Source: an uncultured virus (IMG/VR IMGVR_UViG_3300044634_004095)
Taxonomy: Duplodnaviria > Heunggongvirae > Uroviricota > Caudoviricetes
IMG/VR virus record: IMGVR_UViG_3300044634_004095
Strand: one strand, 5' to 3'
Length of the DNA: 64,000 nt
Part shown: in pieces, positions 17,242 to 36,609 of the stretch
Layout: each line of letters opens with the position of its first letter
How positions within the stretch are numbered: position 1 is the first letter of the stretch
Notes under the pieces: generated by a model
Told to the model about the DNA's origin: nothing
Seen by the model: only the letters and a program-made list of their open reading frames with translations
Database searches by the model: none
Translations under genes and position numbers: made by a program

Positions 17242-17293
17242 TTCCCACGAGAAACAGTTTGTTGTTATTGAATTAATAAGGCAGGGCGACGCG

Positions 17294-17608: not shown

Positions 17609-17670
17609 CGCACGAGCAACCAGCGCAACAAAAAATGCAAAACTGGCGAGAAGCAAGAATGTCAGTAAGT

Positions 17671-20350: not shown

Positions 20351-20749
20351 TGTCTAGTCTCCTCTAGTAGTTGGGATGGATTACTTAGTCAGATTAACAT
20401 GGCAGGGACAGACTGTTAATTAAATTGAGTGTGAGTGAAAGCAGTTCTTACATCATCCTTTAGTAACGGCGACCCTTTCCCCCACCGTCAATCTCTACCC
20501 GTGAGGAACAGTGAGAGAGAACCACATAATTTTTTTGCAAATTATTTTTCTTACATTATCCCAGCATGCCCCCGACAGAGACGAATTGATGTTGCTTGCG
20601 TGTGCGGGTTGGAGCCCCGGGCTCTGCACGCGTAGCGGGGCTTACACTGAGCTCGATTTATGGATGTTGCATTATCCTTTAGTAAGCGAATTTACATTAT
20701 CCTTTAGTAACAAGACGGCCGTTGTAAAGGATAATGTAGAGCCGAATCA

Positions 20750-21229
20750 TCACTCACGCTCTGGTGGGCAAGTTGCTTCGTAGAGACCATTCTTTATCTT
20801 CTTATAGTGGAGAGACTCCTTGATGTACCCTAAGGTTGTCTGATACGAGAACCCAGCGACCTCAACAAGTTGGTCTATGGAGAACTGCTCTCCTACATGG
20901 TCTTGTGCAAACTGCTCAAAAGCTGACCACTTGTCTCGTCGCTTCTCGGGCTTCTCGCTCTCATCACTGACAGAATGTCCAGTGAATCCATCTACTATAT
21001 ATTTTGCGATGTCGTCGGGAACGCCGTAGGTGCGTAGGAAATGCAATGGGTGACGGGTGCTTCCTTCACGCTGCCAAATGAGCAATACGTCCATTCCACG
21101 AACGGTCTCGGTGGCACGAGTGCTTTCATCTTTCGGAACTGAAAATGCATCTTTATATTTTTTTACAAGTTTTTGCCATAAGCCTTTATGGACTTCCAAT
21201 ACGAGTTCGGGGGTGATGGTCGTTTGCAT
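20750..21229 (-). CDS. hypothetical protein, possible C-terminal wHTH
   Basis: 159-aa ORF; start lies within a box A copy. Confidence 0.6.
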   Translation of the reverse strand: MQTTITPELVLEVHKGLWQKLVKKYKDAFSVPKDESTRATETVRGMDVLLIWQREGSTRHPLHFLRTYGVPDDIAKYIVDGFTGHSVSDESEKPEKRRDKWSAFEQFAQDHVGEQFSIDQLVEVAGFSYQTTLGYIKESLHYKKIKNGLYEATCPPERE

Positions 21230-21408
21230 TATCCTTTAGTGTCACTTTCCGTTTGGCTTGCTGTCGTTAGTAGTATTCGTAAGTCTAATAATATGTCCAT
21301 TATTACCGTTGCTGATACTGTCTCGCGGTTCGCACATTCCGCGAGAGCAGTATCAACTATGGCACATGAACGCTCAATCCATCGTGGGATATCACGCTCA
21401 GTCATTGC

Positions 21409-22128
21409 TTATTCGCCGTTTTTTTCTTTTTTGCGCTTTGGTGCATCACGTAATTTGCTTGTGTATCCACGAGCGACGGTGGCAAAACGAGTGAACATGA
21501 CAAATGAAATTATGGTTTGGGCAAGTTTTCCCATTTCAATTTCCTCTAATTCTTTTGCTCCGTAATTCTCAAATCCCAGCAACTCACTCATTGTGGAAAT
21601 TCCCTCGTCAAATACAGGAACACCAAAATCGTCATACTTGTATGGAGCGATTACCGTGTAGAGATTACGACATTCCCAATCAACGGCAGTGACCATTAGT
21701 GTCTCTCTCACTTCACTAAATGGGTTTTCCCGAAAATCTTTTTCAAGACCGCCCCCCTGTATCTGTCCAGCAACGATTGAATTCTCGGCAGGGCTAGTAT
21801 AACCCTCTGCAATAATTGCAATAAATGAAAATTCCTTAGCAGGCAAATGCTTTACTATGTCTCCAATGCAATCGTAAATGTCATCACGATGAATAAGCGG
21901 GAGTACAGCAACCTTGTAGGGCTTGCTTGTGTCGTTCTCGTGCTGAAATTCCATAGCCTCGTCAAAGGCTTCATCGCTTTCCTCTGTGCTAACAAAACCA
22001 ATCATCATGACAGACGGGTTGTCCTGCATTGCTTCTTCTTTGCACATTTCTGTTTTTGCGAAGATAGACCTATGCATGAATTCTTCGCACATAGTCTGCA
22101 TATCTAGTACCGTTGGTTGAATGTCCAT
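21409..22128 (-). CDS. hypothetical protein
   Basis: AAGGAG SD, 239 aa. Confidence 0.65.
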   Translation of the reverse strand: MDIQPTVLDMQTMCEEFMHRSIFAKTEMCKEEAMQDNPSVMMIGFVSTEESDEAFDEAMEFQHENDTSKPYKVAVLPLIHRDDIYDCIGDIVKHLPAKEFSFIAIIAEGYTSPAENSIVAGQIQGGGLEKDFRENPFSEVRETLMVTAVDWECRNLYTVIAPYKYDDFGVPVFDEGISTMSELLGFENYGAKELEEIEMGKLAQTIISFVMFTRFATVARGYTSKLRDAPKRKKEKNGE

Positions 22129-22170
22129 TTTATTCTCCTTGTTTAGTAGGTTGTATTAAGTCTCTTATTT

Positions 22171-22302
22171 CTATTCTTCTTCGTAATCTTCGTAATCGGC
22201 ATAATCTGGATTCTGACTGTATAATTTTTCTGCCCAATAAGCGTCGTCAGCACGTTCTTCTGCTGGGTGACCGCAACATGGTCTATCTTCGCAACTGCAC
22301 AT
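22171..22302 (-). CDS. 43-aa Cys-motif acidic microprotein (not in ORF track)
   Basis: MCSCEDRPCCGHPAEERADDAYWAEKLYSQNPDYADYEDYEEE; GAAAGGAG SD and promoter at 22333-22361. Confidence 0.6.
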   Translation of the reverse strand: MCSCEDRPCCGHPAEERADDAYWAEKLYSQNPDYADYEDYEEE

Positions 22303-22386
22303 TTGATTCTCCTTTCGTAGTGGGTTGTTTTTAGTGTATCAGCAATGGTACAGATAAGCGACTTTACATTATCCTTTAGTAACCGA

Positions 22387-22614
22387 TTAATTTGCCAGCA
22401 TGACATTGGGCTCCAAATTGAGAGCGTGACAGAGTGAAATAAAACTTTCCAAACTTGGCGAGTAATGTTCGTTCTCTATTCTGTTAATTGTTTTCCTATC
22501 AAGACCTGCTAGTTCGGCAAGTTCGCCCTGAGATAATCCCCGAAGTGATCGCTCTTCTTTTAGTCTTGCTGGAAAAATCTTTTCTACTATTGTTTTGGTA
22601 TTGCGTGTAGTCAT
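22387..22614 (-). CDS. XRE-family helix-turn-helix regulator
   Basis: RLKEERSLRGLSQGELAELAGLDRKTINRIEN; promoter TTGTGA-17-TACAGT at 22649-22677. Confidence 0.9.
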   Translation of the reverse strand: MTTRNTKTIVEKIFPARLKEERSLRGLSQGELAELAGLDRKTINRIENEHYSPSLESFISLCHALNLEPNVMLAN

Positions 22615-22866
22615 AATTGTTTTCCTTTCTTTGAGTACCGCAGGTGGAACTGTACCTACACAGGTTCTCAATCACAACCCTTTCCGCCACCGTCAAAAGC
22701 CAATAGGGGAATAGCGAGTGTAAAACTTGGCGCATTATCCCAACACGCCCCCGCAGCGACATTACCTAAATACGCCCCCATTCGACAAAAGCGCGGCGAG
22801 CAGGTTGAAGCCCCGCGGCCCTCCCTGCCGTAGCGGGGCTTATTCCGGCAAAAGTTACATTATCCT

Positions 22867-23190
22867 TTAGATAGGAATTGCATGAGCTAGACGAGCGTCT
22901 ACGATCTCGACACCATCTACGGGAGCAGACCACATGCGATGGACTATTGTCCAAAAACTTGGAACGGTGTAGGCAATCTCATCTCGTGACACTCCGTGCG
23001 AATCAAAACCCTCTTCCGTGCCAAACCGCGAAATAGAGACATATTCGGTGGCGGTTACATTATCCTTCAGTAACAGGCAGTGAGCCCCAACGAGTATTTC
23101 CCGACGAGCGATGCCGCTAATGAAGGAAAAGAATAAGATGATAGTGCTCCAAATCAGAGCAAATGGATTCGTGTTGTCTTTCTCGTTCAT
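22867..23190 (-). CDS. hypothetical protein carrying an in-frame box A copy (LKDNV)
   Basis: Operonic spacing with upstream gene; N-terminal TM. Confidence 0.5.
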   Translation of the reverse strand: MNEKDNTNPFALIWSTIILFFSFISGIARREILVGAHCLLLKDNVTATEYVSISRFGTEEGFDSHGVSRDEIAYTVPSFWTIVHRMWSAPVDGVEIVDARLAHAIPI

Positions 23191-23191
23191 G

Positions 23192-23644
23192 TCACCTAAC
23201 CCTTCTTACTTCTGGTTCGTCTTGAACCTTGATCCAATTTGGCTCTGGCTCATTCCACGTGAAGAAGTTGATGATGTCGTTATAGACGTGAAGGACCATT
23301 AGTCCACCCTTGCTGATGATGTAGACGTAATCGCACCACGAATCTTGATAATTTGCAGGCGTATACCATTCATTAGGGTTGCCTTGTTCCTCGTTGCCAG
23401 CAATACCATAGCCTTCTACAACTTCCCAGCGAGATTCCTCTGGCTCCTCGTTTGGCTGCCACGGCTTGAGAGTAGACCAGTAGAAGTGGTCGTCTACGAG
23501 AGTTTTCACTGCTTTATCGTAGCCGTCACGTTGTACAATTTCCCAAATGCTCTTGCCTTGATGTGCTGGATACCCATCCCAATGGGCATAGCGCCCCTTC
23601 CACGAGTCTCCATCTTGCTTTGCAATGATGCTTCTAGTCCCCAT
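23192..23644 (-). CDS. hypothetical phage protein
   Basis: MGTRSII...YAHWDGYP; GGAG SD. Confidence 0.7.
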   Translation of the reverse strand: MGTRSIIAKQDGDSWKGRYAHWDGYPAHQGKSIWEIVQRDGYDKAVKTLVDDHFYWSTLKPWQPNEEPEESRWEVVEGYGIAGNEEQGNPNEWYTPANYQDSWCDYVYIISKGGLMVLHVYNDIINFFTWNEPEPNWIKVQDEPEVRRVR

Positions 23645-23829
23645 TACACTCCCTCGCTTTCAGATACATCCCAGGGAATATCCCAGTTGTGACTTCCGTC
23701 TAGGTCTTTGGACTTCAGTTCGTCGTCTGTGAGTTTGTAGTAAGCCTCTAGTGCGGACTCTTTGTCTTCTGCCTCAACTTCATAAGAGTGTGAGATGTCT
23801 TCACTAACTGAAACAATAAACTTTTTCAT
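23644..23829 (-). CDS. hypothetical protein
   Basis: Follows promoter at 23862; acidic EVEAEDKESA. Confidence 0.6.
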   Translation of the reverse strand: MKKFIVSVSEDISHSYEVEAEDKESALEAYYKLTDDELKSKDLDGSHNWDIPWDVSESEGV

Positions 23830-24177
23830 TTTTTCTCTTTTCTTTTCTAGTAGGTAATTAAAATATACCAGTGCTGTTACACATAAGCAACTCTTCCGCC
23901 ACCGTCAATTGTTACCGAGCTCAAAAAAGTAAAATATTTTGCAAATAATTAAATAACATTATCTCAATACGACCCCGCATGTATCTGCCCCCGAGCAATG
24001 AGGTGGCCGCCGACCTAAGCCCCGGCGTCGACCCGACTTCGGCGGGGCTCATACCGCCAATCGCTTACATTATCCTTTAGTGATGAGTGCGTTACATTAT
24101 CCTTCAGCAACGAGCGCATGAGAACCTATACCAAAGGATAATGTAGAGGGTTACATTATCCTTTGGTAATCGGCGGG

Positions 24178-24663
24178 CTAGTCGTCGGTAGGTTCACCGC
24201 TGGGGATCTCTCCAGTGGTTAGCCATGAGTACATTTCATCACTGGACAGTGAGACAACGGTAGGGCTAGAGTTCAGCGCCTTCTCTGCTTCCTCTTTGAT
24301 AATCTCTGTCATGATCTCGGACAGTGCGAGGTGGGCAGAGATAGAAGCAAACTCAGGTGCTAGATATTTTTCGGGAACGTCGTAACTCTCTCCGTCGTAG
24401 TAGCCCTTAGCATTGAGTCCACCGACGAGAACAACATCACCAACCAGTGGGCGACTAAACATAATGGAAGCCATTACGTTTGCTGGAAGCCCGATGAGCA
24501 AGCCTTCATCGTGAACGTAGCCGACCAAATCATCAACGTCTTTATGAGTCACTGTGTCAATGTAGCCACCTACAGCGTCACGTATAGTCGGGTATTCATT
24601 ATCTTTCTCTAGTTCTAACGGCAAGACCTCGCCTGTCGTTTTAAGTAGTAATGCCTTTACCAT
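24178..24663 (-). CDS. DUF3846-like protein
   Basis: IRDAVGGYID...VHDEGLLIGLPAN...LVGDVVLVG. Confidence 0.7.
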   Translation of the reverse strand: MVKALLLKTTGEVLPLELEKDNEYPTIRDAVGGYIDTVTHKDVDDLVGYVHDEGLLIGLPANVMASIMFSRPLVGDVVLVGGLNAKGYYDGESYDVPEKYLAPEFASISAHLALSEIMTEIIKEEAEKALNSSPTVVSLSSDEMYSWLTTGEIPSGEPTDD

Positions 24664-24757
24664 TTCTGACCCCTTTCGGTCTCTGTTTAACTTATTTACA
24701 TTATCCTTTAGTAATTGGTGGGATCGCCATAACGACGACCCCACCAACTAGGCGAGA

Positions 24758-25366
24758 TTATTTCATCACTTCAGCGAGGTGGGTCTCTATGAAGTCGGTT
24801 GTCCACTCGCCCCAATGCTCGTCTCGGCTTCCGTATATTCCTGCGTCAATACTGCGAGCAACATCGGTTCTAATCTCAAAGACGGTAGGCACGTTTCGCA
24901 AAACCGTTGCAACGTCTTTGACGGTCAGTGCGTTGGCTTTCTGATACAAGACCACGCAAGCGTCGTAGAGGTGATCGGGTGGGATCATTGGGAACGCTAT
25001 TGACGCTGCCCTAATGCTCAGGTACTCGTTGCGAACTACTTGGACACGTAGGTCGGGTAACCCAAATCCATATTGACGGGTCATTTCCATTCCAGCGTCA
25101 ATGACTACGAAATCGTAATCGCCAATGCTTAACATACCGTTTAATTCATTAGGCGTTACGCCCTTGACGGTGATGCCGTAATGTCCTTCATTCTCTCGGA
25201 ACGTATTTACGGTTAGACCGAGCAACGCTGTGCAATCGTCGTTCTTTGATGGGTCAAGTAAGAGAACTCGCTCAGGAGATTTCTTACCCAATGCCAATGC
25301 AATGGAACAGGCGACGGTCGTTGTCCCGACTCCACCCTTTTGCGCTGTTACTTCTATGACCTTCAT
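24758..25366 (-). CDS. ParA/MinD/CpaE-like P-loop protein
   Basis: QKGGVGTTT deviant Walker A, RVLLLD, YDFVVIDAG. Confidence 0.75.
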   Translation of the reverse strand: MKVIEVTAQKGGVGTTTVACSIALALGKKSPERVLLLDPSKNDDCTALLGLTVNTFRENEGHYGITVKGVTPNELNGMLSIGDYDFVVIDAGMEMTRQYGFGLPDLRVQVVRNEYLSIRAASIAFPMIPPDHLYDACVVLYQKANALTVKDVATVLRNVPTVFEIRTDVARSIDAGIYGSRDEHWGEWTTDFIETHLAEVMK

Positions 25367-25488
25367 TTCTATACCCCTTTACGGTAATGGCGGATTTGCC
25401 ATATCATTACTGTACCACGCTAGGGACAGACTAGCGTTTTACATTATCCTTTAGTAGTGGGGGCAGGTTTTAACCCACCCCCAACTAA

Positions 25489-25911
25489 CTAGGAAGCCTT
25501 TACTTTTTTGGCTGGCTTTACGTCGGCTGGCTTCATTGCGCCTTTGGCAGGCTTGACAAGAACACGCACCGTGTCTGTCGTTTCCACGACGGTTTTGATT
25601 ACCTTCGCTGGGATCTCGCCCTTTGCGATTGCGCTGTCCCATGCTTTGGTGTCAATCGCTGGCTTCGTCACACGACGGAAAAGAGCAGGAGAAACTGCCT
25701 CTTTGAGTTTATCAAGCGACCACGAGCGTCGTGGTGATGGCGACACAGAGACAGTGAGTTCTGCGAATGTGTGGCTGTCAATGCCCGACACTGCGTAAGT
25801 CTCTAACAACAACTCACGAGCCTCGTCGTATGCGATTTCTGCTTGTTCTTTAGCGGTAACAGCCTTTAGGAAGGCTTCGGTTGCTTGGCTAACTTCTGAA
25901 TGTGTAGTCAT
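25489..25911 (-). CDS. hypothetical protein
   Basis: Own promoter at 25953; basic tail. Confidence 0.65.
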   Translation of the reverse strand: MTTHSEVSQATEAFLKAVTAKEQAEIAYDEARELLLETYAVSGIDSHTFAELTVSVSPSPRRSWSLDKLKEAVSPALFRRVTKPAIDTKAWDSAIAKGEIPAKVIKTVVETTDTVRVLVKPAKGAMKPADVKPAKKVKAS

Positions 25912-26245
25912 TTCTAGTACCTCTGTTCTTGTTGGTTATGGGTTACCCCATAACCTTACAAGACGGGGAACAGATTTGCAATACTCTTGACAATCTTTTT
26001 TGCATTATCTCAATCCGCCCCTGATAGCCCTTTCCGCCACCGTCAATTACTACAAGGTTCAGCAAAAATGTTCAGCAAATGTTTAATTGTTTGGAAATCG
26101 TGAAATCTGCATTATCCCAACACGCCCCCGACCATGAGAGCCTGCGTGGCGGTGTGAGCCCCGGCCTCGACCCGTGTTCGGCGGGGCTCTTATCAGATTA
26201 GTGTCATCTAATCGCTAATCTGTACCTTGTTGGGTATTGTTGTGC

Positions 26246-26485
26246 ATGGCAAAAAAACAGAACCCATATCCACACTATGAAGTATGCGAAATAGAAATAG
26301 TTTCACCTGACTTCGCTCGTGTCGGCTGGTCAATCAAGCACATGGAGACTGGCGAGTTAGTCACCGTTCTCGACCATGCAGACCCACATTTCCCGTGGTT
26401 CGCTAGTTCTAGGAATTGCGCTATCGCCTATGTGCGGTTTCTGAATTGCATTGTGCATGATGAACCCGTGTGCCATTGCGATTAA
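26246..26485 (+). CDS. hypothetical protein, leaderless
   Basis: ATG 5 nt after -10 TATTGT. Confidence 0.6.
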   Translation: MAKKQNPYPHYEVCEIEIVSPDFARVGWSIKHMETGELVTVLDHADPHFPWFASSRNCAIAYVRFLNCIVHDEPVCHCD

Positions 26486-26506
26486 TCGCACTATCCTGGA
26501 TAGTCG

Positions 26507-26555
26507 GTGGCTTGCTCTCGTCGGGAGAGCAAGCCACTTTACATTATCCTTTAGT
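26507..26555 (+). terminator. GC hairpin fused to box A
   Basis: GTGGCTTGCTCTC/GAGAGCAAGCCAC stem then TTTACATTATCC; near copy at about 35662. Confidence 0.6.
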
Positions 26556-26801
26556 GAGAACGAGCGAGCCACTTACATTATCCTTTAGTAAGAATGATGT
26601 AGATTATGGGCTATGGTATTCACTGAGAAATTGAATAAAGTACTTGACCTCATTTCCGCAGCAGATAGTTTGCTAGACGAAGCCCGTAATGCTATTGCCG
26701 TTGTTCGGCGTGGCAGGCTTTTTTTGGTTTCCAAAAACTAAAGGATAATGCAAAATGGGGGGGCAGGCTTTCGCCCACCCCCCCACTAGGAACTCAATCG
26801 T

Positions 26802-27209
26802 TTACAGGTACTGAGCCACACCCTTGTAGGTGCTTGTGCCGACGAACTCGTCGTCTGTCATTTTGAGAATGGAAATCGCATTTTTGATTTCCTCAATCTG
26901 GTTAGCGTGGTAGTGACCAATGTGTTCTGGTGACTCTGGCAGTTTTACGCTTGGCGAGAGGTTGAAGGTAAGGGTTACTTCTCTCATTTCGTCTCTCCAC
27001 GAGTCCTGCACTCGTGATGACTTAAAGGTAAGTTTGCTCGTGCCGACAAGTTTAACAAGAGACTTCTCAAAGGCTTCGTGTTCCTTTTCGTAGGCTTCTC
27101 TTGCTTTCTTGTAGTCTGCTACTTCCTTCTCTCGCTTCGCAAGAGCAACCTCTAGTGCTTTGATGAGTTTGGCTGTACTTACTTTTACGTTCATTGACTT
27201 GGTTGTCAT
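26802..27209 (-). CDS. hypothetical coiled-coil protein
   Basis: AAGGAG SD, promoter at 27250. Confidence 0.7.
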   Translation of the reverse strand: MTTKSMNVKVSTAKLIKALEVALAKREKEVADYKKAREAYEKEHEAFEKSLVKLVGTSKLTFKSSRVQDSWRDEMREVTLTFNLSPSVKLPESPEHIGHYHANQIEEIKNAISILKMTDDEFVGTSTYKGVAQYL

Positions 27210-27492
27210 TTTTTCTCCTTGTTACTTCTAGTAGGTGGGTAACAAGATAAGTGTACTGCACAGGGTACAGATACTCAATACTTTACATTATGCCAACACG
27301 CCCCCGACTGGAGAGGTTGAGCGACGACGGACAGAGCCCCGGCATCTCGCCGACTTTTGCGGGGCTTCGATGGGCAGTCGTTTACATTATCCTTTAGTAA
27401 AAAATGGGGGGGGACTCTCAGTACTGGTGGGTACTGAGAGTCCCTAACTAAAGGATAATGCAGAGGGTTACATTATCCTTTAGTAACAACCG

Positions 27493-27957
27493 CTAACTAA
27501 ATAGCGACTGAACTGCATCGGCTAGGGGACCACGACCTGAGTCGTCACCGCCCATAACCTCAACCTCGTTTAAGTCCTGAAATCGGACAACGCTAGTTAC
27601 TGAGTCGGCAGATGCACAGACAAGTAGGCGAACACGACGACGTGCTTCATGCTTGCTGGGTGCTGGCAAATCTTCATCGTTGCCGTCGTAATTATCGGGC
27701 AATGGTGAAGCCCAACCAGTAGTTACCAATACGATACAGTCATACCATTTCGCTGCGAACCTCGCCCCATCGCTGGAGAGAAGATCGTAGATGTCCTCTG
27801 CTTCGGTCACTTGGTCAAATAGATGAACCTCATCGCCGTCTGTCTCTACACCAAAAAGCAACGGCTTCGCTAACTCAAAAGCCTTATCTTCATTCTCACG
27901 AATGAGCAAATCGTGTATCTGTTGCTCAATGTTTTTGGAGATGTCTAGTGGTTTCAT
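27493..27957 (-). CDS. hypothetical protein
   Basis: GAAAGGG SD, promoter at 27993. Confidence 0.7.
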   Translation of the reverse strand: MKPLDISKNIEQQIHDLLIRENEDKAFELAKPLLFGVETDGDEVHLFDQVTEAEDIYDLLSSDGARFAAKWYDCIVLVTTGWASPLPDNYDGNDEDLPAPSKHEARRRVRLLVCASADSVTSVVRFQDLNEVEVMGGDDSGRGPLADAVQSLFS

Positions 27958-28284
27958 ATTTCCCTTTCATATGTGTCGTTGGTGACATTCTTACTGTACC
28001 TCATAGGGGACAGATTAGCAATTTGCATTATCCTTTAGTAGTGGGGCTATCCGCCACCGTCAAAGATTAGGGGACAACGTGACTCCGCTCAAAGTCACAG
28101 CCCTCTAGATGGTGAGAAACTTCTTTAATCGGATGACATTATCGCAACGCGCCCCCGACGATGAGTTGGCTGGAGTCTGGCTTGGGGCGACGGACAGAGC
28201 CCCGCTGCTCACCGCTTCAGCCGGGGCTTCGTCCCGATAAAGGTCATTTAATCGCCAACCTGTCCCCGTAGTGGTACGTTGTGA

Positions 28285-28545: not shown

Positions 28546-28724
28546 GTCGCGCCAAACTTTGCGAACGTGCCGAGAACGTCTCTCGGCACGTTCGCTCTAT
28601 TAGTTTGATCAAAGCCCCGGCCGAGGGCGAGCTCAGCGGGGCTCCAACCGCATTCGCGTCATCTAATCGCTAATCTGTCCCTGTCGTGGTATGTTGTGAA
28701 TGTAGTCAAGCGAAAGGAAAAGTA

Positions 28725-28994: not shown

Positions 28995-29139
28995 CGAGTT
29001 ACATTATCCTTTAGTGTTAGCGGGGGGTTCGCCCCCCGCTTTACATTATCCTTTAGTGTTAAACCTCTTTCTAAAGGATAATGCAGGCGGTTACATTATC
29101 CTTTAGTAAGAAAAGCACTTTAGTCGTCGCCGTGTTTCG

Positions 29140-29643
29140 TTAAACTCGCTTTGCACATACTGGACCGATACCACGAGCGACACTTTTTGCATCGGTTAGG
29201 TCTGCTCCACAGACACAGCACATAGACATTTCTACGCCTAAGGCGGTGGCTCGCTCAACGGTCATTCTGTCGCTTGCGCTTAATCTCTGAATACTTCCAC
29301 GCTCGTACTCAAAGCGCTCACTTTTTGTTGATGCTGTCGGGATAAAACGCATAGCGTACAAGTTGCCCGTTTCACGGCTCTGCTTGACCCTGTAAATACC
29401 TTCGGGGGTCTCGTACATTCCCGTAACGGTCACGGGGTCGCTTGGTGCTGACACTCTTACTTGGTCATTTGCCATAGAGCGTTCTACTGCTTCTATTTGG
29501 CGAATTGTTAATGAACCATAACGCTCAAACTTAGAGAGTAGGTCTGCATAGAACGAACTACGCCCTGAGTTGATAACGCAAAACTTTACTACTTTGAGAG
29601 TGCGTTCGTCGGGATTGTTATTCTCAATTTCTTTGATGTCCAT
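29140..29643 (-). CDS. DUF6011-like zinc-binding protein
   Basis: CCVCGADLTDAKSVARGIGPVCA. Confidence 0.75.
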   Translation of the reverse strand: MDIKEIENNNPDERTLKVVKFCVINSGRSSFYADLLSKFERYGSLTIRQIEAVERSMANDQVRVSAPSDPVTVTGMYETPEGIYRVKQSRETGNLYAMRFIPTASTKSERFEYERGSIQRLSASDRMTVERATALGVEMSMCCVCGADLTDAKSVARGIGPVCAKRV

Positions 29644-30262
29644 TGTTGCCCCTTTCATGGGTGTAGTGGTTATTCATATTGTACCTTATCGGGTACAGAC
29701 TAGGGTCGTTTTACATTATCCTTTAGTGTTCGGGGTCGTCTGTCTGATGTTCGGGATCGTCTGTCCCTGCTTCGTAGGCGTGCGAGAGCCAGCAAAATGA
29801 TGCACAGACAGGGCATACGACTACCTGCGGATAGTTCACGAGAACTCCATGCTCGTCTAAAACCTGAGAGCGTGTGAGTGGGTGTAGGGAACGGCAGTGT
29901 GAAAAATAGTAAGTCTTCATATTACTTACGAGAAACCTTCGGTAAAAAGATGTCAAGGAAAAATGATTAAAACATTTCCTCAAGAACGTGACATCACGAA
30001 AGTTCCTTCCGCCACCGTCAATAATTTTGAGTCGTTCGGGGAACGCAGTAAATTTGCATTATCGCAACGCGCCCCCGACAGTGATCCAGATTTTGCAAAA
30101 AACAGGAGCACGGACAAAGCCCCGCGTGAGACCGTTCCTGCCGGGGCTCTTTCGGATCATCCTCGAAAGCTGACTTTACGCGGCAATTCCGGGTTAGCGT
30201 CATTTAATCGCCAATCTGTACCTAGCGAGGTATGCTGCAAGCAACCCAACGAAAGGAAAGTA

Positions 30263-30607
30263 ATGAGAAAAATCAACTATGACACGATCACCGTTTTCGA
30301 CGATTGCGCCGAAGCCGATGAGTGGGAAAAAGAAAACGACAGAGAATGGATCCCTGTCGGCTGCATTGACACCGAGATTCCCTACCGCTGGGAAGGCTCA
30401 CAAGCGAAGATAGAACTGCATGCTGACCTGAATCAGTACTGGTGCGATGGCACCGTTCCTGGGTCTACTCGTGACTGTCTCATCAAGGATTGGAAAGTGG
30501 TTGTTTGGAAAGACAAGAACAACGACAACGACTACGAACTCCACTACGCAGAAAACGAACAAGACGGCAATGAAATCCTAGAGAGTCTCGCTGTTACATT
30601 ATCCTAG
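30263..30607 (+). CDS. hypothetical protein
   Basis: GAAAGGAAAG SD, promoter at 30208; upstream extension in the ORF track is repeat DNA. Confidence 0.65.
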   Translation: MRKINYDTITVFDDCAEADEWEKENDREWIPVGCIDTEIPYRWEGSQAKIELHADLNQYWCDGTVPGSTRDCLIKDWKVVVWKDKNNDNDYELHYAENEQDGNEILESLAVTLS

Positions 30608-30970
30608 AGTATGTATTGAGGCTCGCTCCCGTGTGGGGGCGAGCCACTTACATTATCCTTTAGTGTTAGCGGCGAGCCTGACCCCGGGGGCTTTCCGCCA
30701 CCGTCAAATAGTACAAGCAGGTATGACATCATTCTGAGCTCATGGCTGAAAGATGCACATTATCTGAACACGCCCCCGATGACGCAAATAAAAAGTTTGA
30801 CGCGAGAAGCCAGACAAAGCCCCGCGGCTCACCGCCTTCAGCGGGGCTTCGATGCTCGAGACTTTACATTATCCTTCAGTGAAAGAAGCTCGGGAATCCC
30901 AGCGCGGGGGCGCGCTGGGATTCCCCTAACCAAAGGATAATGTGGGGAGTACATTATCCTTTGGTGTTAA

Positions 30971-31399
30971 TCATTCAATCGGGAACGACTGAGCCTTTTT
31001 GATTAGCACGAGTAGTAGCGATTCTCTAGTGGGGACTAGATCCCTAATGAGTTCTAACGTTTCCGTGTGAAACTGATTGAATGACTTTTCACTGAAACGC
31101 GCAACGCCTACTTGGTTGTGAAACCTTGTAGACGGGAACTGCTGCACGTTGAATGGTTCCCAAATAGTGACGGTGAAACCGGCTGCGGGCTGCCACCAAA
31201 GCAAGCGCATAGTGGCGGTGTACTGTTTGCGCTTTGGGTCGTGGGTGAACTCTAGTTCTACTTGCTCGCCTGCCATTGAATTAGTGCCGCTGTATCGCTG
31301 ATCTAGTACTGGCGATCGCCACACGTATTTAATGCTACGGTCACCAATGATCGGTTGTGGGAACTTCAGGGTAATTTCTGGGTTTTGGGTTGTAGTCAT
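30971..31399 (-). CDS. hypothetical protein, leaderless
   Basis: ATG 6 nt after -10 TACTCT. Confidence 0.65.
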   Translation of the reverse strand: MTTTQNPEITLKFPQPIIGDRSIKYVWRSPVLDQRYSGTNSMAGEQVELEFTHDPKRKQYTATMRLLWWQPAAGFTVTIWEPFNVQQFPSTRFHNQVGVARFSEKSFNQFHTETLELIRDLVPTRESLLLVLIKKAQSFPIE

Positions 31400-31641
31400 A
31401 CCCAAAGAGTACTAGCAAGGGTACAGATTAGTGAATGTTTGACATTATCTCAGCACGCCCCCGACAGGTGAATGAGCAAGAGCAGGTTCAAGCCCCGCGG
31501 CCAGACGCTTGTAGCGGGGCTTCGATGTGAAACATTGTCAGTCTCGGTCGGGGGCGCATTTGGATAATGTTGCTTTAATTAACAATTTGATACTGACTAA
31601 CTATAATGACAACGTAAGCAACTACTAGAAGGAGTACTACT

Positions 31642-31938
31642 GTGAACGATATTTATTGCCCAGTATGTGGCGAACCGTGGGACAACGACACGCTACATGA
31701 ATACGCCGAGGAATATGAAACAACCTATAGAGCGACCTACAAATTATTTTTTTCCGATGGTTGCGCTGTGGCGTTCAAAGAATGGGACATAGCGTGTGAA
31801 CGCCCTGAGGGTGGTTCATCACGAGCCTTGTTTTCGTCATTGTTGGCAGAGATGCTAGGCGATGACGTGGACGGAATAATTAGCGAAATGCAGGACGCTG
31901 AGTTGCTTGGCTTACTGAACGACAATAGTAAAGGATAA
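31642..31938 (+). CDS. hypothetical zinc-binding protein
   Basis: CPVCGEPWD; AAGGAG SD; promoter TTAACA-17-TATAAT. Confidence 0.65.
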   Translation: MNDIYCPVCGEPWDNDTLHEYAEEYETTYRATYKLFFSDGCAVAFKEWDIACERPEGGSSRALFSSLLAEMLGDDVDGIISEMQDAELLGLLNDNSKG

Positions 31939-31943
31939 TGTAA

Positions 31944-32255
31944 ATGCTAACAATAAACGAAAATAACCTATTATTGAACGGCGATATTGTTGCCACGCTA
32001 CCAAACACAAGCGCACGGCAAGTGCTATTACGCGCATTGCTTGAAAGCCTATCTAATCGCGATGGCGTATTTCTTGCGCTATCTCACTTAGGGGAAGCGC
32101 GTACTGCTGATATCGCTCATCTTGTTGGCATAGATAGGTCAAATGCTGGCAGGGTTCTAGACAGCCTATTGTTAGAGGGAATGGTAAAGGTAGTAAACGA
32201 TTGCAATAAGGCTGGAACGGTAGGGCGACCATCTAGGGTTTGGGCGACCGTTTAA
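31944..32255 (+). CDS. winged-helix DNA-binding protein
   Basis: ARTADIAHLVGIDRSNAGRVLDSLLLEGMV...GRPSRVW. Confidence 0.7.
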   Translation: MLTINENNLLLNGDIVATLPNTSARQVLLRALLESLSNRDGVFLALSHLGEARTADIAHLVGIDRSNAGRVLDSLLLEGMVKVVNDCNKAGTVGRPSRVWATV

Positions 32256-32337
32256 CATTATCCTTTAGTGTGTGCGCGTCTATATTGGCGCGCACACACT
32301 TGAACACTAAAGGATAATGTAAAGAGTACGAAAACTA

Positions 32338-32808
32338 TTATTCGCTCATCGGGTTTGGGGCAATTTCTCCGAATACAGCCTCGTACATTTCTCGCCCTGC
32401 TTTCCACTCGTCCCACGACCCGTCAGATGAGACACGGATACACGACCCGTAAATAACCTTTGCTCTTATTAGTGAGGCGGTTACTACTGCGTCGTATGGC
32501 TTGTAAGCCGTTTTGCAAAATGAGAAATGGTCGGGCTCATCTTTGCGCCACTCGGGTTGAGTCGGGATAGCGTCCCACCAAAACGACTCGTGCCCATTGT
32601 CGCCGTTTTCATCGCTCACGCCATTAAATGCGAAATAACCCTCAGTACACACGGGCTGAGTGTTGGGTGCACCAAACGCGTCACCTAGTGCAATTCCGTT
32701 TTCTTGTGCATAATCGCAAATTGCTTTTACGTCTAGTCCCAATTTGCCAAACATATAAGCCGACCCTGCGTTATTCATTGGTCGCGAAACATAGTGCGTA
32801 TAGCCCAT
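32338..32808 (-). CDS. hypothetical phage protein
   Basis: MGYTHY...FCKTAYKPYDAVV...SSDG; AAGGAG SD. Confidence 0.7.
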   Translation of the reverse strand: MGYTHYVSRPMNNAGSAYMFGKLGLDVKAICDYAQENGIALGDAFGAPNTQPVCTEGYFAFNGVSDENGDNGHESFWWDAIPTQPEWRKDEPDHFSFCKTAYKPYDAVVTASLIRAKVIYGSCIRVSSDGSWDEWKAGREMYEAVFGEIAPNPMSE

Positions 32809-32895
32809 TTCTTTTCTCCTTGTCTAGTAGTTATTATTAGATTACTTTACGATATTCAGACTAGCGATTAAATTACATTATCCTTTAGTGATAGT

Positions 32896-33168
32896 TCACA
32901 AGTCAGGGTTGAACCAACCCCAAGAACCATCAACGTTAATTACTACGTCCTCGGGCGCTAGGCAGTTGATTAGCGGAACAGCAGTACTATTCCAACTCCA
33001 TGTAAAGTTTGGCTTTAGCGAAATATCGCAAATGGGTTTAGTTTCTCTATTGTCGCTTGTGATTAGTAACGTGGCAAGAACGACGACAACGGAAGTCGCC
33101 AATCCCCATACTATTATTCTTACGAAAGTGCGTAGCGTGTAGTAAGCAGATGACTTTTCATTGTTCAT
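32896..33168 (-). CDS. hypothetical membrane protein
   Basis: One TM; promoter at 33198. Confidence 0.6.
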   Translation of the reverse strand: MNNEKSSAYYTLRTFVRIIVWGLATSVVVVLATLLITSDNRETKPICDISLKPNFTWSWNSTAVPLINCLAPEDVVINVDGSWGWFNPDL

Positions 33169-33416
33169 ACTTTCCCCTTTTTCTAGTAGTTGTTATTAGA
33201 CTACTTGACGCTATTCAGACTAGCGATTAAATGACATTATCTCAACACGCCCCCGACAAGAACAAGCGTGAGAGGTTTCAGCTTAAGCCCCGCAGGCCAG
33301 CCTGTCCCCCGGGGCTCCTACCGGATTCAGCCACAAGCGCATGACTCGAAATTGGCAAGCGCCGTTACTAAAGGATGATGCCGGATTACATCATCCTTTA
33401 GTAACGATTGCTCCTA

Positions 33417-33836
33417 CTAGAGTCCCCGTTCCCTGCGCTGTTGTTCTGTCACAGGGCGCAACGTTGTCTCGCTGCCGGTTGGGGCATCGTGGTGAGATAG
33501 TGAGTATTCAACTCGGTCGGAATAAACCTCATAGTGCATGCGCCATTCACTTCTGACTGTCATGGCTATAAGCATTTCTTCAACTTTGTCTACCTTGAAA
33601 TGTCCGGATATATCGCCGTTCCAAAGTCGCAAATTCTCAACGGACCACCAATCAGTTTCGTTGCTGTGGCGTAGTTCCATTGTTGCCTCTCCGAACTCGG
33701 CTACTGAGTCGCTCCAGCAATAACCAAAACACTCGGATGCTTCTTTATAGTCTCCGGTGTTTTCGTCATAGGCGGTGCAAGTGCATAGGTTGGTTATTTC
33801 TCCGGCTGTGATGAGTGTTTTTTTGGTTGTTGTCAT
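33417..33836 (-). CDS. hypothetical protein, leaderless
   Basis: ATG 6 nt after -10 TAAATT; HHDAPTG. Confidence 0.65.
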   Translation of the reverse strand: MTTTKKTLITAGEITNLCTCTAYDENTGDYKEASECFGYCWSDSVAEFGEATMELRHSNETDWWSVENLRLWNGDISGHFKVDKVEEMLIAMTVRSEWRMHYEVYSDRVEYSLSHHDAPTGSETTLRPVTEQQRRERGL

Positions 33837-34046
33837 GTCTTCAATTTACCATTGAGGGTACAAACTAGCGTTTTTGCATTATCCTTTAGTAATGTTCTTT
33901 TCTCCAAATTTGCAAAACTTCTTTTTTCGTGTAATACAAGTAAAAGTGATAAGGGTAGTCATGAGTCCCATCACAGGGCAAGCGATAAAACCCCGTTTTT
34001 GTTTTTTCTATACTTTTTAGTGTTGGTGTAATTTTTGGCATTGCGC

Positions 34047-34361
34047 TCACCAACCTCCCCGAGCCTCATAGTCTCCAACTGAACGCTCAATTTCATTTGA
34101 CAGAAAATAGTGTCCTGCCTCTGCAAGAAAACCCTCAGGGCGAGCGGAAATAATCCACGTCACGTACTTGTGATATGACCCCCTATTGTTGGACTCACAG
34201 AGTGCAATCCAACTAGAGTAAGTATCCCCAATAACTCTCTCCGTGAGACGCTTGCAACGCAATACGGTGTGATCGGAAATGGACATACCTTTTGCAAGTA
34301 AGTTGAATTCTGCTTGTGTCTGCCCGTTGTGATCGTTAATTGTTTCTAATTCTGTTTGCAT
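34047..34361 (-). CDS. hypothetical protein (similar to 28725-28994)
   Basis: AGGAG SD, promoter at 34398. Confidence 0.65.
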   Translation of the reverse strand: MQTELETINDHNGQTQAEFNLLAKGMSISDHTVLRCKRLTERVIGDTYSSWIALCESNNRGSYHKYVTWIISARPEGFLAEAGHYFLSNEIERSVGDYEARGGW

Positions 34362-34562
34362 TTTTTCTCCTAGCAATTGGTAGTAGGTGTTGTTAGTAAC
34401 GTACCTTGCAGGTAACAGGCTAACTATAAATAAACATTATCGCAACACGCCCCCGATATGATCAGTCTGCGAGCCGGAGGGGAGAAGCCCCGCGTGGGGC
34501 GTGCGAAGCCGGGGCTTTAATGCTCGACAACAGCATTATCCTTGAGTGTCGGCGAGCGGCGC

Positions 34563-34895
34563 TTACCCGTGCCAGTTTTCAGACCGCTCTATGAAGTTGC
34601 GCAAACTTTCCTCGTCGGTCATTTTTTCTTTCTCGCCTTCTTCGATAATCCAACCGAAAACGTCCTGACGTATGGCGCATCGTTCTTCTACTGCTTTCAC
34701 AGCTTGAGCGGGCGTGAGTGCCTTTTCGCCAAAACCACGCAACCCGGCGTCCCATTCCCAACCGAACGACTCAACAAGATCGGCATCGTCGTAGCACTCG
34801 TAGAGCTCTGACTCAAAAAGGTTCTGGGGGTCGCTGTAGAGCGGCATTGCTTTAATTGCGGCGACTATTTCGTCGTGTTGTGGGTGAGTTTTCAT
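34563..34895 (-). CDS. hypothetical protein
   Basis: AAGGAG SD. Confidence 0.65.
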   Translation of the reverse strand: MKTHPQHDEIVAAIKAMPLYSDPQNLFESELYECYDDADLVESFGWEWDAGLRGFGEKALTPAQAVKAVEERCAIRQDVFGWIIEEGEKEKMTDEESLRNFIERSENWHG

Positions 34896-34921
34896 TTCTT
34901 TCTCCTTTTGTTTGGGTTTGT

Positions 34922-35218
34922 TTAATAATTCATTTTGTCAAAAGCGGCGGCGGCGCCTTTAGCCATTGCGTCTTGACGAAAGGCATAGGTCGTGTCAAAC
35001 GCAACCCGCAGAACATTCCGGTGAAGTACTGAGATCTCCTCTTTTTCCAGAACGTCGTAATTTGCATTGTCGCCATACTCGCACTCAAGCACGACTGCCA
35101 CGCTGTGCTTTGTGAGCACGCTTTTAACCTTGACGAACTTAATTTCGCCATTCACTTTTGCGGCGAAAACTACTTTTTTGTTTTTGTCAATAGCGGCGCC
35201 GATGTCCCATACCTTCAT
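34922..35218 (-). CDS. hypothetical protein
   Basis: AAGGAG SD, promoter at 35260. Confidence 0.65.
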   Translation of the reverse strand: MKVWDIGAAIDKNKKVVFAAKVNGEIKFVKVKSVLTKHSVAVVLECEYGDNANYDVLEKEEISVLHRNVLRVAFDTTYAFRQDAMAKGAAAAFDKMNY

Positions 35219-35446
35219 GTTCTTGTCTCCTTGTGTGTGTTGTTCCTGCCGATGACTTAAAAATACCAGCAGGGGTACAGATTAGCGAAAAAGCTACCCT
35301 AATCAGGTTGAGGCGAGGCGAACAAGCCCCGGCTTCGTCCGCGCTCAGCGGGGCTCGCATGGGGTTGGTGTTCTTTTATCGCTAATCTGTACCTGTCATG
35401 ACAGAATAGGAACACGGGGGAAACGCCCTCGGGATTAGGGGAGATT

Positions 35447-35638
35447 ATGCCACTCTGGAAACAAAGAACAGAAGTAGACAAGGGCTACAAAGACATCGTG
35501 CTGAGGGAATTGGGAATAGAACAAGACCCCAAAGACTGGGAGCGCTCAAATTGGGTGATCTTTTTGTTGTGCGCTGGTTTTGACATAGAAACGATTACAA
35601 GGTTTCTAGCAGACGACGGTCGCTTCGTTTACGACTAA
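35447..35638 (+). CDS. hypothetical protein
   Basis: GGAG SD, promoter at 35379. Confidence 0.55.
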   Translation: MPLWKQRTEVDKGYKDIVLRELGIEQDPKDWERSNWVIFLLCAGFDIETITRFLADDGRFVYD

Positions 35639-35762
35639 AAAGATTATCCTAGATAGTTCGGGTGGCTTGCTCTCGTAGGGAGAGCAAGCCACTTTACATT
35701 ATCCTTTAGTAATGGGTCGGGGTTTTCTCCCGACCCATTACGGTCTATTGTCGTAACGACCC

Positions 35763-35984
35763 CTAGTCGTACCACCTAGATGCTGGCAACTCGCACAGTA
35801 GGCAGATCGCGTTTCTTAGTTTTGCGAGAACTCGTGGGCTATGTCTTATTTTTGCAATGTCTGCACTAACTCCGTAAACTTCGCGGAGTTGGTGAACGGT
35901 GAAATCGTTACAGCAATACGAACAGATAAACCCTTCGCTGTCTTTGTCGTAAGCGACCGTCTCTAGATCTTTGTATTCATACAC
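35763..35984 (-). CDS. small zinc-finger protein
   Basis: CSYCC...CLLC; GAGG SD. Confidence 0.5.
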   Translation of the reverse strand: MYEYKDLETVAYDKDSEGFICSYCCNDFTVHQLREVYGVSADIAKIRHSPRVLAKLRNAICLLCELPASRWYD

Positions 35985-36126
35985 AGTTAGTGTTTCCTCT
36001 CTTTATCCTTTAGAGGTTGCTTACCTCTGCTGATCGGACATTCAATAGAAAGAAAAACATCATCGCAATGTTCCCCCGAGTGCGTGATGCATCCACTTCA
36101 CGACAAAGCCCCGCTGTAAACCGGCC

Positions 36127-36609
36127 CTAACGGGTCTCCATGCTTGGGAGAGTCTTCATCGAGCGCAGCTGATGCTTACCTAAGCGCCAAGACTCACGCC
36201 AGCCATTTGGATTGAAAAGGTTCTCGTCTTTTTTGACTTCGTACCCGTAGGCCCATCCGACAAAAAAGAAAACGTTCCCCATGAGTTGTGCAAATATATA
36301 TCGCCTCTGAATGGGGTCGTTGTCTCGGATGATAAGGCCACCACGTGGGTGACTAGTTGCTCGAATCTCATTTTCTCCGTCATCGGGAATTTGGTGAAAC
36401 TCATTTATGGGGTTGTGCCACAGTTTTTCATTGATGCGCGCCCAGGCTAGTTCTGCTCCAGCCCCAACTCTTTCCTGTTGGATTCTCTCGTCCATCGAGC
36501 GATCATATGTTGATGCATGGTTCAGTCCCTGTTTGCCAGACTCGGTTATGCGTAGCCTGACGGCTTTATCAACTTCTGCCCAGTCACTGTCTGTCATTGC
36601 GTATCTCAT
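36127..36609 (-). CDS. hypothetical protein, possible PD-(D/E)xK nuclease fold
   Basis: GAGAELAWAR...PDD...EIRAT. Confidence 0.5.
   Translation of the reverse strand: MRYAMTDSDWAEVDKAVRLRITESGKQGLNHASTYDRSMDERIQQERVGAGAELAWARINEKLWHNPINEFHQIPDDGENEIRATSHPRGGLIIRDNDPIQRRYIFAQLMGNVFFFVGWAYGYEVKKDENLFNPNGWRESWRLGKHQLRSMKTLPSMETR

What the first reader, a model, noticed from the sequence alone, without database searches (positions are those of the whole stretch)
20613..36137. Fourteen AGCCCCG-N17-CGGGGCT dyads with invariant arms and length-conserved variable cores
Seen: core lengths in order are 16, 18, 18, 18, 18, then 17 nine times. Arms are perfect in 13 of 14, while cores differ and are only weakly self-complementary; no U-tract follows consistently. 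Inference: conserved length with free sequence fits a dimeric protein site with widely spaced half-sites, or a recombination/cleavage site, better than a terminator. A conserved RNA stem with a variable loop is the alternative.
Basis: partly seen in the sequence, partly recalled or inferred. Interest (0 to 1): 0.8.

Follow-up and report, generated by a model that had tools for sequence, protein, structure and literature searches.

The report
Paired heptamers marking phage early DNA
The dyads are head-to-head pairs of a 7-letter DNA word, AGCCCCG, that a family of uncultured lake phages packs into the one block of genome stripped of restriction sites (probably the DNA that enters the cell first) and purges from the rest, so it is most likely the docking site of a still unidentified protein that controls early genes, not a terminator or a recombination site.

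Summary
The 14 dyads are real (a 15th at 17361 was missed; 0 in 200 shuffles). The window is part of an uncultured, roughly 150-170 kb WhiB-encoding lake phage. The functional unit is the heptamer AGCCCCG, not the N17 dyad: relatives keep it with spacers of 15-20, 24-30 or 36-48 bp, singly, or in hairpin loops. In 12 genomes or records it is confined to one 25-45 kb early block beside the replication initiator; outside, conserved genes hold 0 against 21.6 expected. That block is also purged of restriction-type palindromes, with a sharp edge that falls on the 17361 site in this clade. 46 of 62 copies of a polar 13-bp box lie 85-135 bp downstream of a heptamer (null 4%), even inside genes. Cores avoid pairing, drift like flanks and never invert; no recombinase was found. 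Best reading: double-stranded DNA docking site for a conserved factor acting on early promoters of first-entering DNA (0.5); DNA entry/protection is the main rival. The reader protein is unidentified. This scan reported the heptamer before on five other genomes and the depleted block on one; the polar-box coupling and edge coincidence were not in the notes I saw.

The parts
17361..17389 (.).
20613..20642 (.). Heptamer pair, core 16; B box and C box (122 nt) follow on minus strand
22809..22840 (.). Heptamer pair, core 18; C box at 113 nt
24018..24049 (.). Heptamer pair, core 18; C box at 110 nt
26157..26188 (.). Heptamer pair, core 18, between divergent gene starts; C box at 111 nt
27335..27366 (.). 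Heptamer pair, core 18; follows a separate hairpin with a T run and precedes B box and promoter; no C box
28198..28228 (.). Heptamer pair, core 17, between divergent gene starts; C box at 135 nt
28613..28643 (.). Heptamer pair, core 17, between a plus-strand gene with its own hairpin and the next plus-strand promoter
30118..30148 (.). Heptamer pair, core 17, between divergent gene starts; C box at 97 nt
30818..30848 (.). Heptamer pair, core 17, between convergent gene ends (no gene start served directly); C box at 111 nt
31491..31521 (.). Heptamer pair, core 17, with an outward-facing B box, promoter and gene on each side
33286..33316 (.). Heptamer pair, core 17
34486..34516 (.). Heptamer pair, core 17
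35325..35355 (.). Heptamer pair, core 17, between divergent gene starts
36107..36137 (.). Last pair, core 17, one arm with a mismatch; restriction-word density rises again at 36 kb
14249..14255 (-). Single heptamer, 620 nt upstream of the initiator C-terminal match (562-625 nt in 6 of 7 genomes); C box 108 nt downstream
45371..45377 (+). Single heptamer, distal end of the domain; none further in the 131 kb held for this phage
13774..30707 (-). Eleven polar C boxes, TGACGGTGG(C/T/G)GGA, all on the minus strand (30693, 30007, 28049, 26032, 23894, 22682, 20477, 17223, 15701, 14127, 13774); 9 of 11 lie 97-135 nt downstream of a heptamer; family-invariant
20554..34455 (.). Thirteen B boxes (G run plus GATAATG), 27-56 nt from a pair and pointing away from it; lineage-specific letters
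17961..35710 (.). Lineage-specific word ACTAAAGGATAATGTAA, 43 matches with up to 2 mismatches (33 minus, 10 plus), at cassette boundaries; relatives use other words
17400..36100 (.). Restriction-word-depleted zone of this window (6-23 per kb over 18-30 kb, 11-30 over 31-35 kb, against 50-60 per kb at 13-17 kb); partial depletion runs on to about 45 kb
12906..13752 (-). Replication initiator (C-terminal type) and helicase-loader-like genes abutting the heptamer domain
   Evidence: phrog_16167, phrog_2289
16849..17241 (+). Candidate reader: HA plus sigma70 region-4 HTH protein, in all 7 genomes, near-invariant recognition helix; LexA-type box at 16820
20750..21229 (-). Candidate reader: family-core protein with a C-terminal winged helix (low-confidence model), in all 7 genomes
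22387..22614 (-). XRE-type HTH; in 6 of 7 genomes, not found in G008, which keeps 60 heptamers, so unlikely to be the sole reader

Best explanation
Each arm is an independent 7-bp docking site (AGCCCCG, extended RRAGCCCCGS) on double-stranded DNA. It marks the phage's early block, which is probably the DNA that enters the cell first and meets host restriction enzymes unprotected. A conserved sequence-specific factor (phage-encoded or carried in the virion, not identified) binds it and works at a distance with proteins on the neighbouring polar C box and on the lineage-specific word to control the host-type promoters of the early cassettes, most likely to switch them on at the start of infection. 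This clade arranges the sites head to head at 15-20 bp so that one pair faces both ways; other clades use wider pairs or single sites. Shown: the word, its confinement, its avoidance elsewhere, the co-extensive palindrome depletion, the spacing rules. Inferred: first entry, protein binding, promoter control and its sign. I put about 0.85 on 'heptamer read by a protein on DNA' and 0.5 on this full statement.
For: Heptamer invariant and confined to one block in 7 genomes analysed (31-60 copies) and in 5 further records (4 matches not listed). Outside: 3 against about 30 expected, all 3 near the block edge; 0 against 21.6 in conserved coding sequence, 14 against 3.5 inside; top-ranked of the 7-mers that have 7 or more copies in every block. 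Both orientations, and between divergent genes. Distances to promoter-proximal words fall in steps of about one helical turn: pair to B core 39-44 nt in 43 of 74 and 52-54 in 9; word to pair 24-25 in 16 of 61 and 34-36 in 10; in G007 heptamer to -10 hexamer 33-35 nt in 7, 43-45 in 5, 63-66 in 2 of 15, and R=0.91 at 10.5 bp for 13 word distances. 46 of 62 in-block C boxes have the nearest upstream heptamer at 85-135 nt (null 4%); 169 of 254 in loci. Restriction-type words (AGCT, TTAA, TATA, ACGT, TCGA, GGCC, GCNGC, GGNCC, CCNGG) are at 0.16-0.40 of outside density, below every non-palindromic control, also in conserved genes against codon shuffles (0.30-0.55 inside, 0.76-0.92 outside). In T5-like phages only sites in first-entering DNA are vulnerable (PMC10644984, passages). 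Host-type regulator sites share these intergenic modules.
Against: No binding or transcript data. Sites also occur inside coding sequence, including heptamer-C pairs with no promoter found next to them, and 30818 lies between convergent gene ends. Phasing is absent in G008 (R=0.25, n=23), absent for heptamer-C distances (R at most 0.1) and only borderline for 38 pooled heptamer-promoter distances (R=0.28 at 10.5 bp, p about 0.056). Promoters were called with my own matrix seeded from these genomes. The 4 kb next to the initiator hold 1-3 heptamers but no palindrome depletion. The genomes are related, so counts are not independent. C boxes are polar to the genome rather than to the local gene, which suits a DNA-transaction role as well.
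Confidence: 0.5

Rival explanations
1. DNA entry or protection code: the heptamer loads a virion-delivered protein on the first-entering segment (to shield, anchor or pull it in), and heptamer plus polar C box near the edge act as pause or injection-stop signals in a two-step entry. Links to promoters are secondary.
For: Heptamer domain and restriction-depleted domain coincide (4-kb bins: median observed/expected 0.27-0.66 with heptamers, 0.84-0.93 without). The sharp edge lies within 150 nt of a heptamer in 19 of 40 loci against 4.7 expected, 18 of 19 in this clade. Sites are gained inside conserved genes at non-orthologous places. The family encodes giant proteins with ArdC-N, MPTase-PolyVal, UvrD and prohead protease domains, a class predicted to be injected with the DNA (PMC5512222, abstract).
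Against: Only 1 of 21 more distant loci has a heptamer at the edge. Heptamers and C boxes continue 4 kb beyond the edge. Helical phasing to promoter words is not needed by this model. Genome ends are unknown.
Confidence: 0.22
2. Replication, packaging or recombination signal: terminase, a nickase or a helicase-nuclease recognises heptamer plus polar box in the origin-proximal domain (Chi-like or pac-like), which would also speed cassette turnover.
For: The domain abuts the initiator in all 7 genomes. C boxes are strictly polar. Chi motifs concentrate between origin and packaging site in lambdoid phages (PMC3784561, passages). Terminase is closest to that of psiM2 (44% identity; headful packaging recalled). 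7 of 59 synteny breaks lie within 20 nt of a C box against 0.7 expected. 23 of 44 unpaired G008 heptamers sit at the centre of 7-17 bp palindromes.
Against: Breaks are not enriched at the heptamer (4 against 2.8). Most of the C-linked breaks inspected are one recurrent gene-insertion point behind a promoter-like C box. The heptamer is not polar. Flanks of a pair are no more palindromic than flanks of different pairs. No rearranged joints across the pairs in contigs of 4 runs (contigs drop rare variants).
Confidence: 0.15
3. Intrinsic terminator or conserved RNA stem with a variable loop.
For: Intergenic position; a 7-9 bp GC stem can form; in G008 many heptamers are part of long hairpins.
Against: Loop of 15-20 nt that pairs less than chance (first inner pair 0.15 against 0.36); no U tract; no compensatory change in the arms; none of the pairs is among 22 terminator-like hits (whose loop limit is 3-8); no Rfam match; pairs between divergent genes; unpaired heptamers in both orientations; avoidance elsewhere on both strands.
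Confidence: 0.05
4. Site-specific recombination site (integron- or invertase-like) or array of acquired spacers.
For: Cassettes change order and orientation between genomes; a central CG; one cassette gain/loss between L066 and L073 has its crossover in or beside an arm (my reading of the alignment ends).
Against: No serine resolvase or tyrosine recombinase over cut-off in 5 records, 4 of them at least 90% complete; variable core length; cores diverge like flanks (0.79 against 0.81) and are inverted in 0 of 95 orthologous pairs; 1 mosaic among 160 flank-sharing pairs; cores match nothing else in the window beyond shuffles. A Rad52-type annealase and PD-(D/E)XK nuclease suffice for shuffling by short homology.
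Confidence: 0.04

Closest known systems
First-step-transfer (pre-early) DNA of T5/BF23 (PMC10644984, passages read)
   Same: A bounded block of small early genes in which restriction sites are selected against while the rest of the genome keeps them.
   Different: Two-step entry and terminal repeats are not shown here; no block-wide, family-invariant heptamer that is purged elsewhere is mentioned in the passages I read; unrelated phage family.
PeSL promoter-early stem-loop cassettes of T4-type phages (PMC2839356 abstract and section 13; PMC4122927 abstract)
   Same: Repeated composite intergenic modules with promoter and stem-loop in a hypervariable region of small genes; cassette gain, loss and shuffling.
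   Different: PeSL stem-loops are working terminators; here the arms are an invariant word that also occurs singly and inside genes, with a loop that avoids pairing, and crossovers are not enriched at it.
Operators/stoperators of Cluster A mycobacteriophages (PMC9283540, abstract)
   Same: Many copies of a short site read by a phage protein to control early genes in an actinobacterial phage.
   Different: Stoperators are asymmetric, oriented with transcription and vary with immunity type; that fits the lineage-specific word here, not the heptamer, which is invariant, non-oriented and domain-confined. No integrase found.
17-bp repeats of Cluster O mycobacteriophages (PMC4351075, passages)
   Same: More than 30 copies of a dyad with invariant 7-bp arms and unknown reader, many intergenic, some in genes.
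   Different: Fixed 3-bp centre, different sequence, spread over the genome; half-sites are not reported alone.
KorB-KorA long-range silencing on plasmid RK2 (PMC11790492, abstract)
   Same: A two-site logic in which a distant site and a promoter-proximal site cooperate over variable distance.
   Different: No ParB-type clamp tied to the heptamer was identified; the family's ParB_N proteins sit beside a PAPS-reductase gene; the 85-135 nt window has no counterpart in the abstract.
Chi concentration in lambdoid phages (PMC3784561, passages)
   Same: A short motif concentrated beside the origin in a variable region and selected against in other contexts.
   Different: Chi is polar and host-defined; the heptamer is not polar (the C box is), and the host's motif use was not tested.

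Membership tests
Intrinsic terminator | Short-loop GC hairpin followed by a U tract | tested here: not met
   Loop 15-20 nt, inner pairing below chance, 1.75 T in 8 nt; not among scan hits
Intrinsic terminator | RNA 3' ends at the stem | not testable with these tools
   No RNA holder listed
Structured ncRNA | Compensatory changes in the stem; strand bias; Rfam match | tested here: not met
   Arms invariant, cores fold worse than shuffles; both orientations; only 2 tRNAs in Rfam scan
Site-specific recombination site (attC, res, hix types) | Cognate tyrosine or serine recombinase in the genome | tested here: not met
   PF00589 0 of 5, PF00239 0 of 5 over cut-off; a host or novel enzyme is not excluded
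Site-specific recombination site (attC, res, hix types) | Fixed geometry and crossovers in the core | tested here: not met
   Spacers 15-94 and single sites; breaks 4 against 2.8; 0 of 95 inverted cores
CRISPR-like or guide array | Acquired spacers matching a target | tested here: not met
   Cores drift in place like flanks; no match in the window above shuffles; host genome not searched
Stoperator (Cluster A type) | Asymmetric site oriented with transcription, lineage-specific | tested here: not met
   Heptamer invariant and in both orientations; the neighbouring word does meet these features
Stoperator (Cluster A type) | Cognate immunity repressor binds and stops transcription | not testable with these tools
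   No binding data
PeSL cassette | Repeated promoter-containing module ahead of small genes in a hypervariable region | tested here: met
PeSL cassette | Stem-loop acts as terminator and modules mediate recombination | tested here: inconclusive
   Pair is not terminator-like; breaks near the lineage word 10 against 5.6, one clear module-to-module event
T5-type first-step-transfer DNA | Bounded early block depleted of restriction sites | tested here: met
T5-type first-step-transfer DNA | Lies at the first-injected genome end; two-step entry with a stop signal | not testable with these tools
   Only assembled contigs available; ends unknown
Chi-type recombination hotspot | Polar motif over-represented in the host genome | tested here: inconclusive
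   Heptamer not polar; host genome not reached (one search gave no actinobacterial hit)
KorB/ParB clamp loading site | Palindromic site bound by a ParB-type CTPase with HTH | not tested
   ParB_N proteins exist only beside a PAPS-reductase gene

The most novel reading that the evidence does not exclude
The family writes an address code on its first-entering DNA: a virion-delivered protein loads at AGCCCCG (purged from the other three quarters of the genome so that the few injected copies are not diverted), and together with the polar box 85-135 bp away it sets where entry pauses, what is protected and which promoters fire first. That would be a sequence-encoded, domain-wide mark for staged genome entry, with no described equivalent that I found.
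Probability: 0.22. Interest if true: 0.85.

Novelty: new variant of a known kind. Interest (0 to 1): 0.64.

Why it matters
Repeated protein sites in phage early regions are known, but a 7-bp word that is invariant across a large family, gained inside genes within one domain, purged outside it, tied to a second polar box at a fixed distance range and co-extensive with restriction-site purging is a different layout: it looks like domain marking, as matS or ram sites do on bacterial chromosomes (recalled), in a phage. It gives a precise, cheap test (one 7-mer, three small candidate proteins, a handful of spacer variants) of how abundant uncultured freshwater actinophages tell early from late DNA, and the sharp edge at about 17.4 kb predicts a genome end or an injection-stop point that virion reads can confirm.

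Tried and rejected
No whole genome is held for the window; I used related virus records instead. No cultured relative: megablast none; protein searches gave only 24-44% identity matches. Host not identified: an SSB search of GTDB returned unrelated taxa; Actinobacteria is inferred from two WhiB genes and LexA-type boxes. No RNA holder listed. Contigs of 4 of 20 holder runs showed no inversion or deletion joints at the pairs (one short repeat-type joint at 17245). Fold-back origin of the pairs: flanks of one pair are not more complementary than flanks of different pairs in 9 genomes or loci. Shielding of TCGA by the heptamer: 55 sites at 9-60 nt against 47 expected; GC-rich words are modestly enriched there, as local composition predicts. 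Alternating orientation: significant in G007 and G010, not in G008 and G009. Reader identification failed: the model of the 20750 protein is weak (mean pLDDT 62) with no PDB match at E 0.001 and no Atlas hit at 0.9. The gene table was hand-made, had two plus-strand starts a few bases off (true starts 26246 and 30263) and stopped before 36107. Literature: 10 searches, including the motif letters, found no description of this word; the COBRA paper on WhiB phages has no occurrence of 'motif'. Subscription papers and supplements were not seen.


Full report
OBSERVATION. 200 dinucleotide shuffles gave no dyad and on average 4.2 half-sites against 31. A look-alike at 36704 has two mismatched arms and a fully paired core and is an ordinary hairpin.

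CONTEXT. The window encodes WhiB, ThyX, SSB, an SNF2 helicase and two tRNAs. It matches lake-metagenome virus records at 99.6-100% and has no cultured relative. Relatives are 145-170 kb; an actinobacterial host is inferred, not shown. The dyads lie between small genes of a variable block whose genes change order and strand between genomes. Three other repeats share the intergenic DNA: a lineage-specific word (43 matches here; other words in relatives), a B box (G run plus the core of that word) pointing away from each pair, and a polar box C, TGACGGTGG(C/T)GGA, that is invariant in the family. Host-type promoters with a -35, 17 bp and TANNNT follow (my calls).

THE UNIT IS THE HEPTAMER. Close relatives G003-G006 carry 10-13 pairs each in one block. 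More distant ones keep the word but not the spacing: G007 has 57 heptamers with spacers 17-72 and 25 unpaired, G008 has 60 with 54 unpaired. Over 197 distinct pairs the spacers are 15-20 (148), 21-23 (0), 24-30 (30), 36-48 (11), longer (8). In G008, 23 of 44 distinct unpaired sites sit in the loop of 7-17 bp palindromes with unrelated stems; over all unpaired sites 27 of 340 against about 1 in controls, so this is almost one lineage's habit.

NOT RNA, NOT A RECOMBINATION SITE. In 126 family cores the first inward pair is complementary in 15% against 36% expected and cores fold worse than their shuffles. One arm continues with C and the other with G in 60 of 116 non-redundant pairs, in either orientation. 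Five of 14 tabulated pairs lie between divergent gene starts, two between convergent ends. Orthologous cores diverge like their flanks, change length by one base in 7 of 95 pairs and are never inverted. No recombinase passes cut-off in 5 records. Synteny breaks are not enriched at the heptamer (4 of 59 within 20 nt, 2.8 expected; lineage word 10 against 5.6; C box 7 against 0.7); most C-linked breaks inspected are one recurrent insertion point behind a promoter-like C box, and one cassette gain/loss does cross over at an arm.

DOMAIN MARKING. In all 7 genomes analysed the word occupies one 29-43 kb block and is absent from the other 100-127 kb; five more records agree (4 matches unlisted; three are incomplete). 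Outside my first borders 3 copies were seen against about 30 expected, all within about 1 kb of those borders; with borders drawn on the outermost sites, and one circularly adjacent G005 site left out, 0 against 30. Because borders were set from the word itself, the coding test is the fairer one: 0 against 21.6 in conserved genes outside, 14 against 3.5 inside. Some coding sites are kept under different amino acids, others arise at different places in the same gene. The block abuts the replication initiator; the first heptamer lies 562-625 nt upstream of the initiator match in 6 of 7 genomes.

THE SAME DOMAIN IS PURGED OF RESTRICTION SITES. An earlier scan note led me to this test. Twelve palindromic 4-mers are at 0.27-0.66 of expectation in 4-kb bins with heptamers and 0.84-0.93 in bins without. 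The depleted words are the classic Type II set (names recalled), including gapped ones, and fall below all non-palindromic controls; CATG, GCGC, GTAC and CTAG are spared. The effect holds in conserved genes. The proximal edge is sharp: about 32-40 per kb falls to 2-6 per kb within 1 kb, and to zero over 3 kb in G003, G004 and G006; the distal edge is gradual. The change-point is within 150 nt of a heptamer in 19 of 40 loci against 4.7 expected: 18 of 19 in this window's clade (here the 17361 pair), but 1 of 21 in more distant loci. By analogy with T5 and BF23, where only sites in first-entering DNA are cut (PMC10644984, passages), I infer that the block enters first. Against a simple identity of the two marks, the 4 kb between initiator and edge hold heptamers without depletion.

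SPACING RULES. Distances from pairs to promoter-proximal words cluster about one helical turn apart in this clade and in G007 (R=0.91, n=13), not in G008 (R=0.25, n=23); pooled distances to the -10 element are borderline. 46 of 62 in-block C boxes have their nearest upstream heptamer 85-135 nt away, none closer, against 4% by chance; 169 of 254 distinct C boxes in loci agree; there is no helical phase and the rule holds when both lie in coding sequence. In the window 9 of 11 C boxes obey it. C boxes occupy only the initiator-proximal 17 kb or so and all point towards the initiator. Some overlap promoter-like elements in different registers, most do not.

MECHANISM. Invariance, independence of orientation, avoidance on both strands and phased spacing say that a protein reads the word on double-stranded DNA (about 0.85). 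Position in promoter-bearing modules, phasing to promoter words and the company of LexA-type, parS-type and DnaA-type boxes (motif identities recalled) make control of early promoters the likeliest job (0.5), probably activation at entry. Coding sites, genome-polar C boxes and the edge coincidence keep an entry or protection role (0.22) and a packaging, replication or recombination role (0.15) alive. Candidates present in all 7 genomes with near-invariant recognition helices are the winged-helix protein at 20750-21229 and the HA/sigma70-r4 protein at 16849-17241; the XRE protein is missing from G008. Giant polyvalent virion proteins (PMC5512222, abstract) are a third source. None is tested.

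COMPARISON AND NOVELTY. It works like a phage operator array inside PeSL-like cassettes on T5-like pre-early DNA, but fails defining features of terminators, stoperators, PeSL stem-loops and recombination sites. Ten library searches found no description. This scan has noted the heptamer on five other genomes and the depleted block on one; those are unchecked AI notes, and I re-derived confinement, avoidance and asymmetry before reading them. Verdict: real, new variant of a known kind, interest 0.64; the entry-code reading would be categorically new (probability 0.22).

Noticed in passing
window 16820-16833, upstream of 16849-17241 (+): Perfect LexA-type box (CGAAC-N4-GTTCG) 15-16 nt before the start of the HA/sigma70-r4 gene, overlapping a leaderless-type promoter, in 16 of 33 homologues (this clade only): a possibly SOS-inducible regulator in a phage without integrase.
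   Followed up: partly
G008 114844, 127911, 128743, 130457: Four parS-type palindromes (three perfect) next to heptamers in the early block; DnaA-box clusters beside pairs in L092 and L097.
   Followed up: no
G003-G008 whole records; window: GATC is entirely absent from six relatives but present at normal frequency in this window's phage.
   Followed up: no
window 17961-35710: Lineage-specific boundary word, 43 matches, often as inverted pairs or beside perfect GC hairpins; relatives carry up to 40-60 copies of other words.
   Followed up: partly
window 13774-30707 (-): Polar C box: family-invariant, all copies on one strand, also at the start codon and end of the gene at 15011-15721 homologues; new genes insert right behind one copy.
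   Followed up: yes
window 26492-26555 and 35645-35710: A 64-66 bp hairpin plus boundary word duplicated at 94% identity 9 kb apart; assemblies break there.
   Followed up: no
window 13800-14000: AT-rich stretch with short palindromes and a conserved GGTT(T)CCCC..CCCC element upstream of the initiator gene in all 7 genomes; candidate replication origin.
   Followed up: no
window 61977-64000 and beyond (G002); G003 79459-130053: Three giant ORFs (2,500-4,600 aa) around capsid and portal genes with ArdC-N, MPTase-PolyVal, UvrD, RNase_T and prohead-protease domains.
   Followed up: partly
G003 140702-143423: Core ParB_N plus PAPS-reductase gene pair, a possible DNA-modification module.
   Followed up: no
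window 36127-37703: Two AT-rich genes without homologues in four relatives and with high restriction-word density at the distal end of the pair array, followed by an ordinary hairpin at 36704: probable recent insertion.
   Followed up: no
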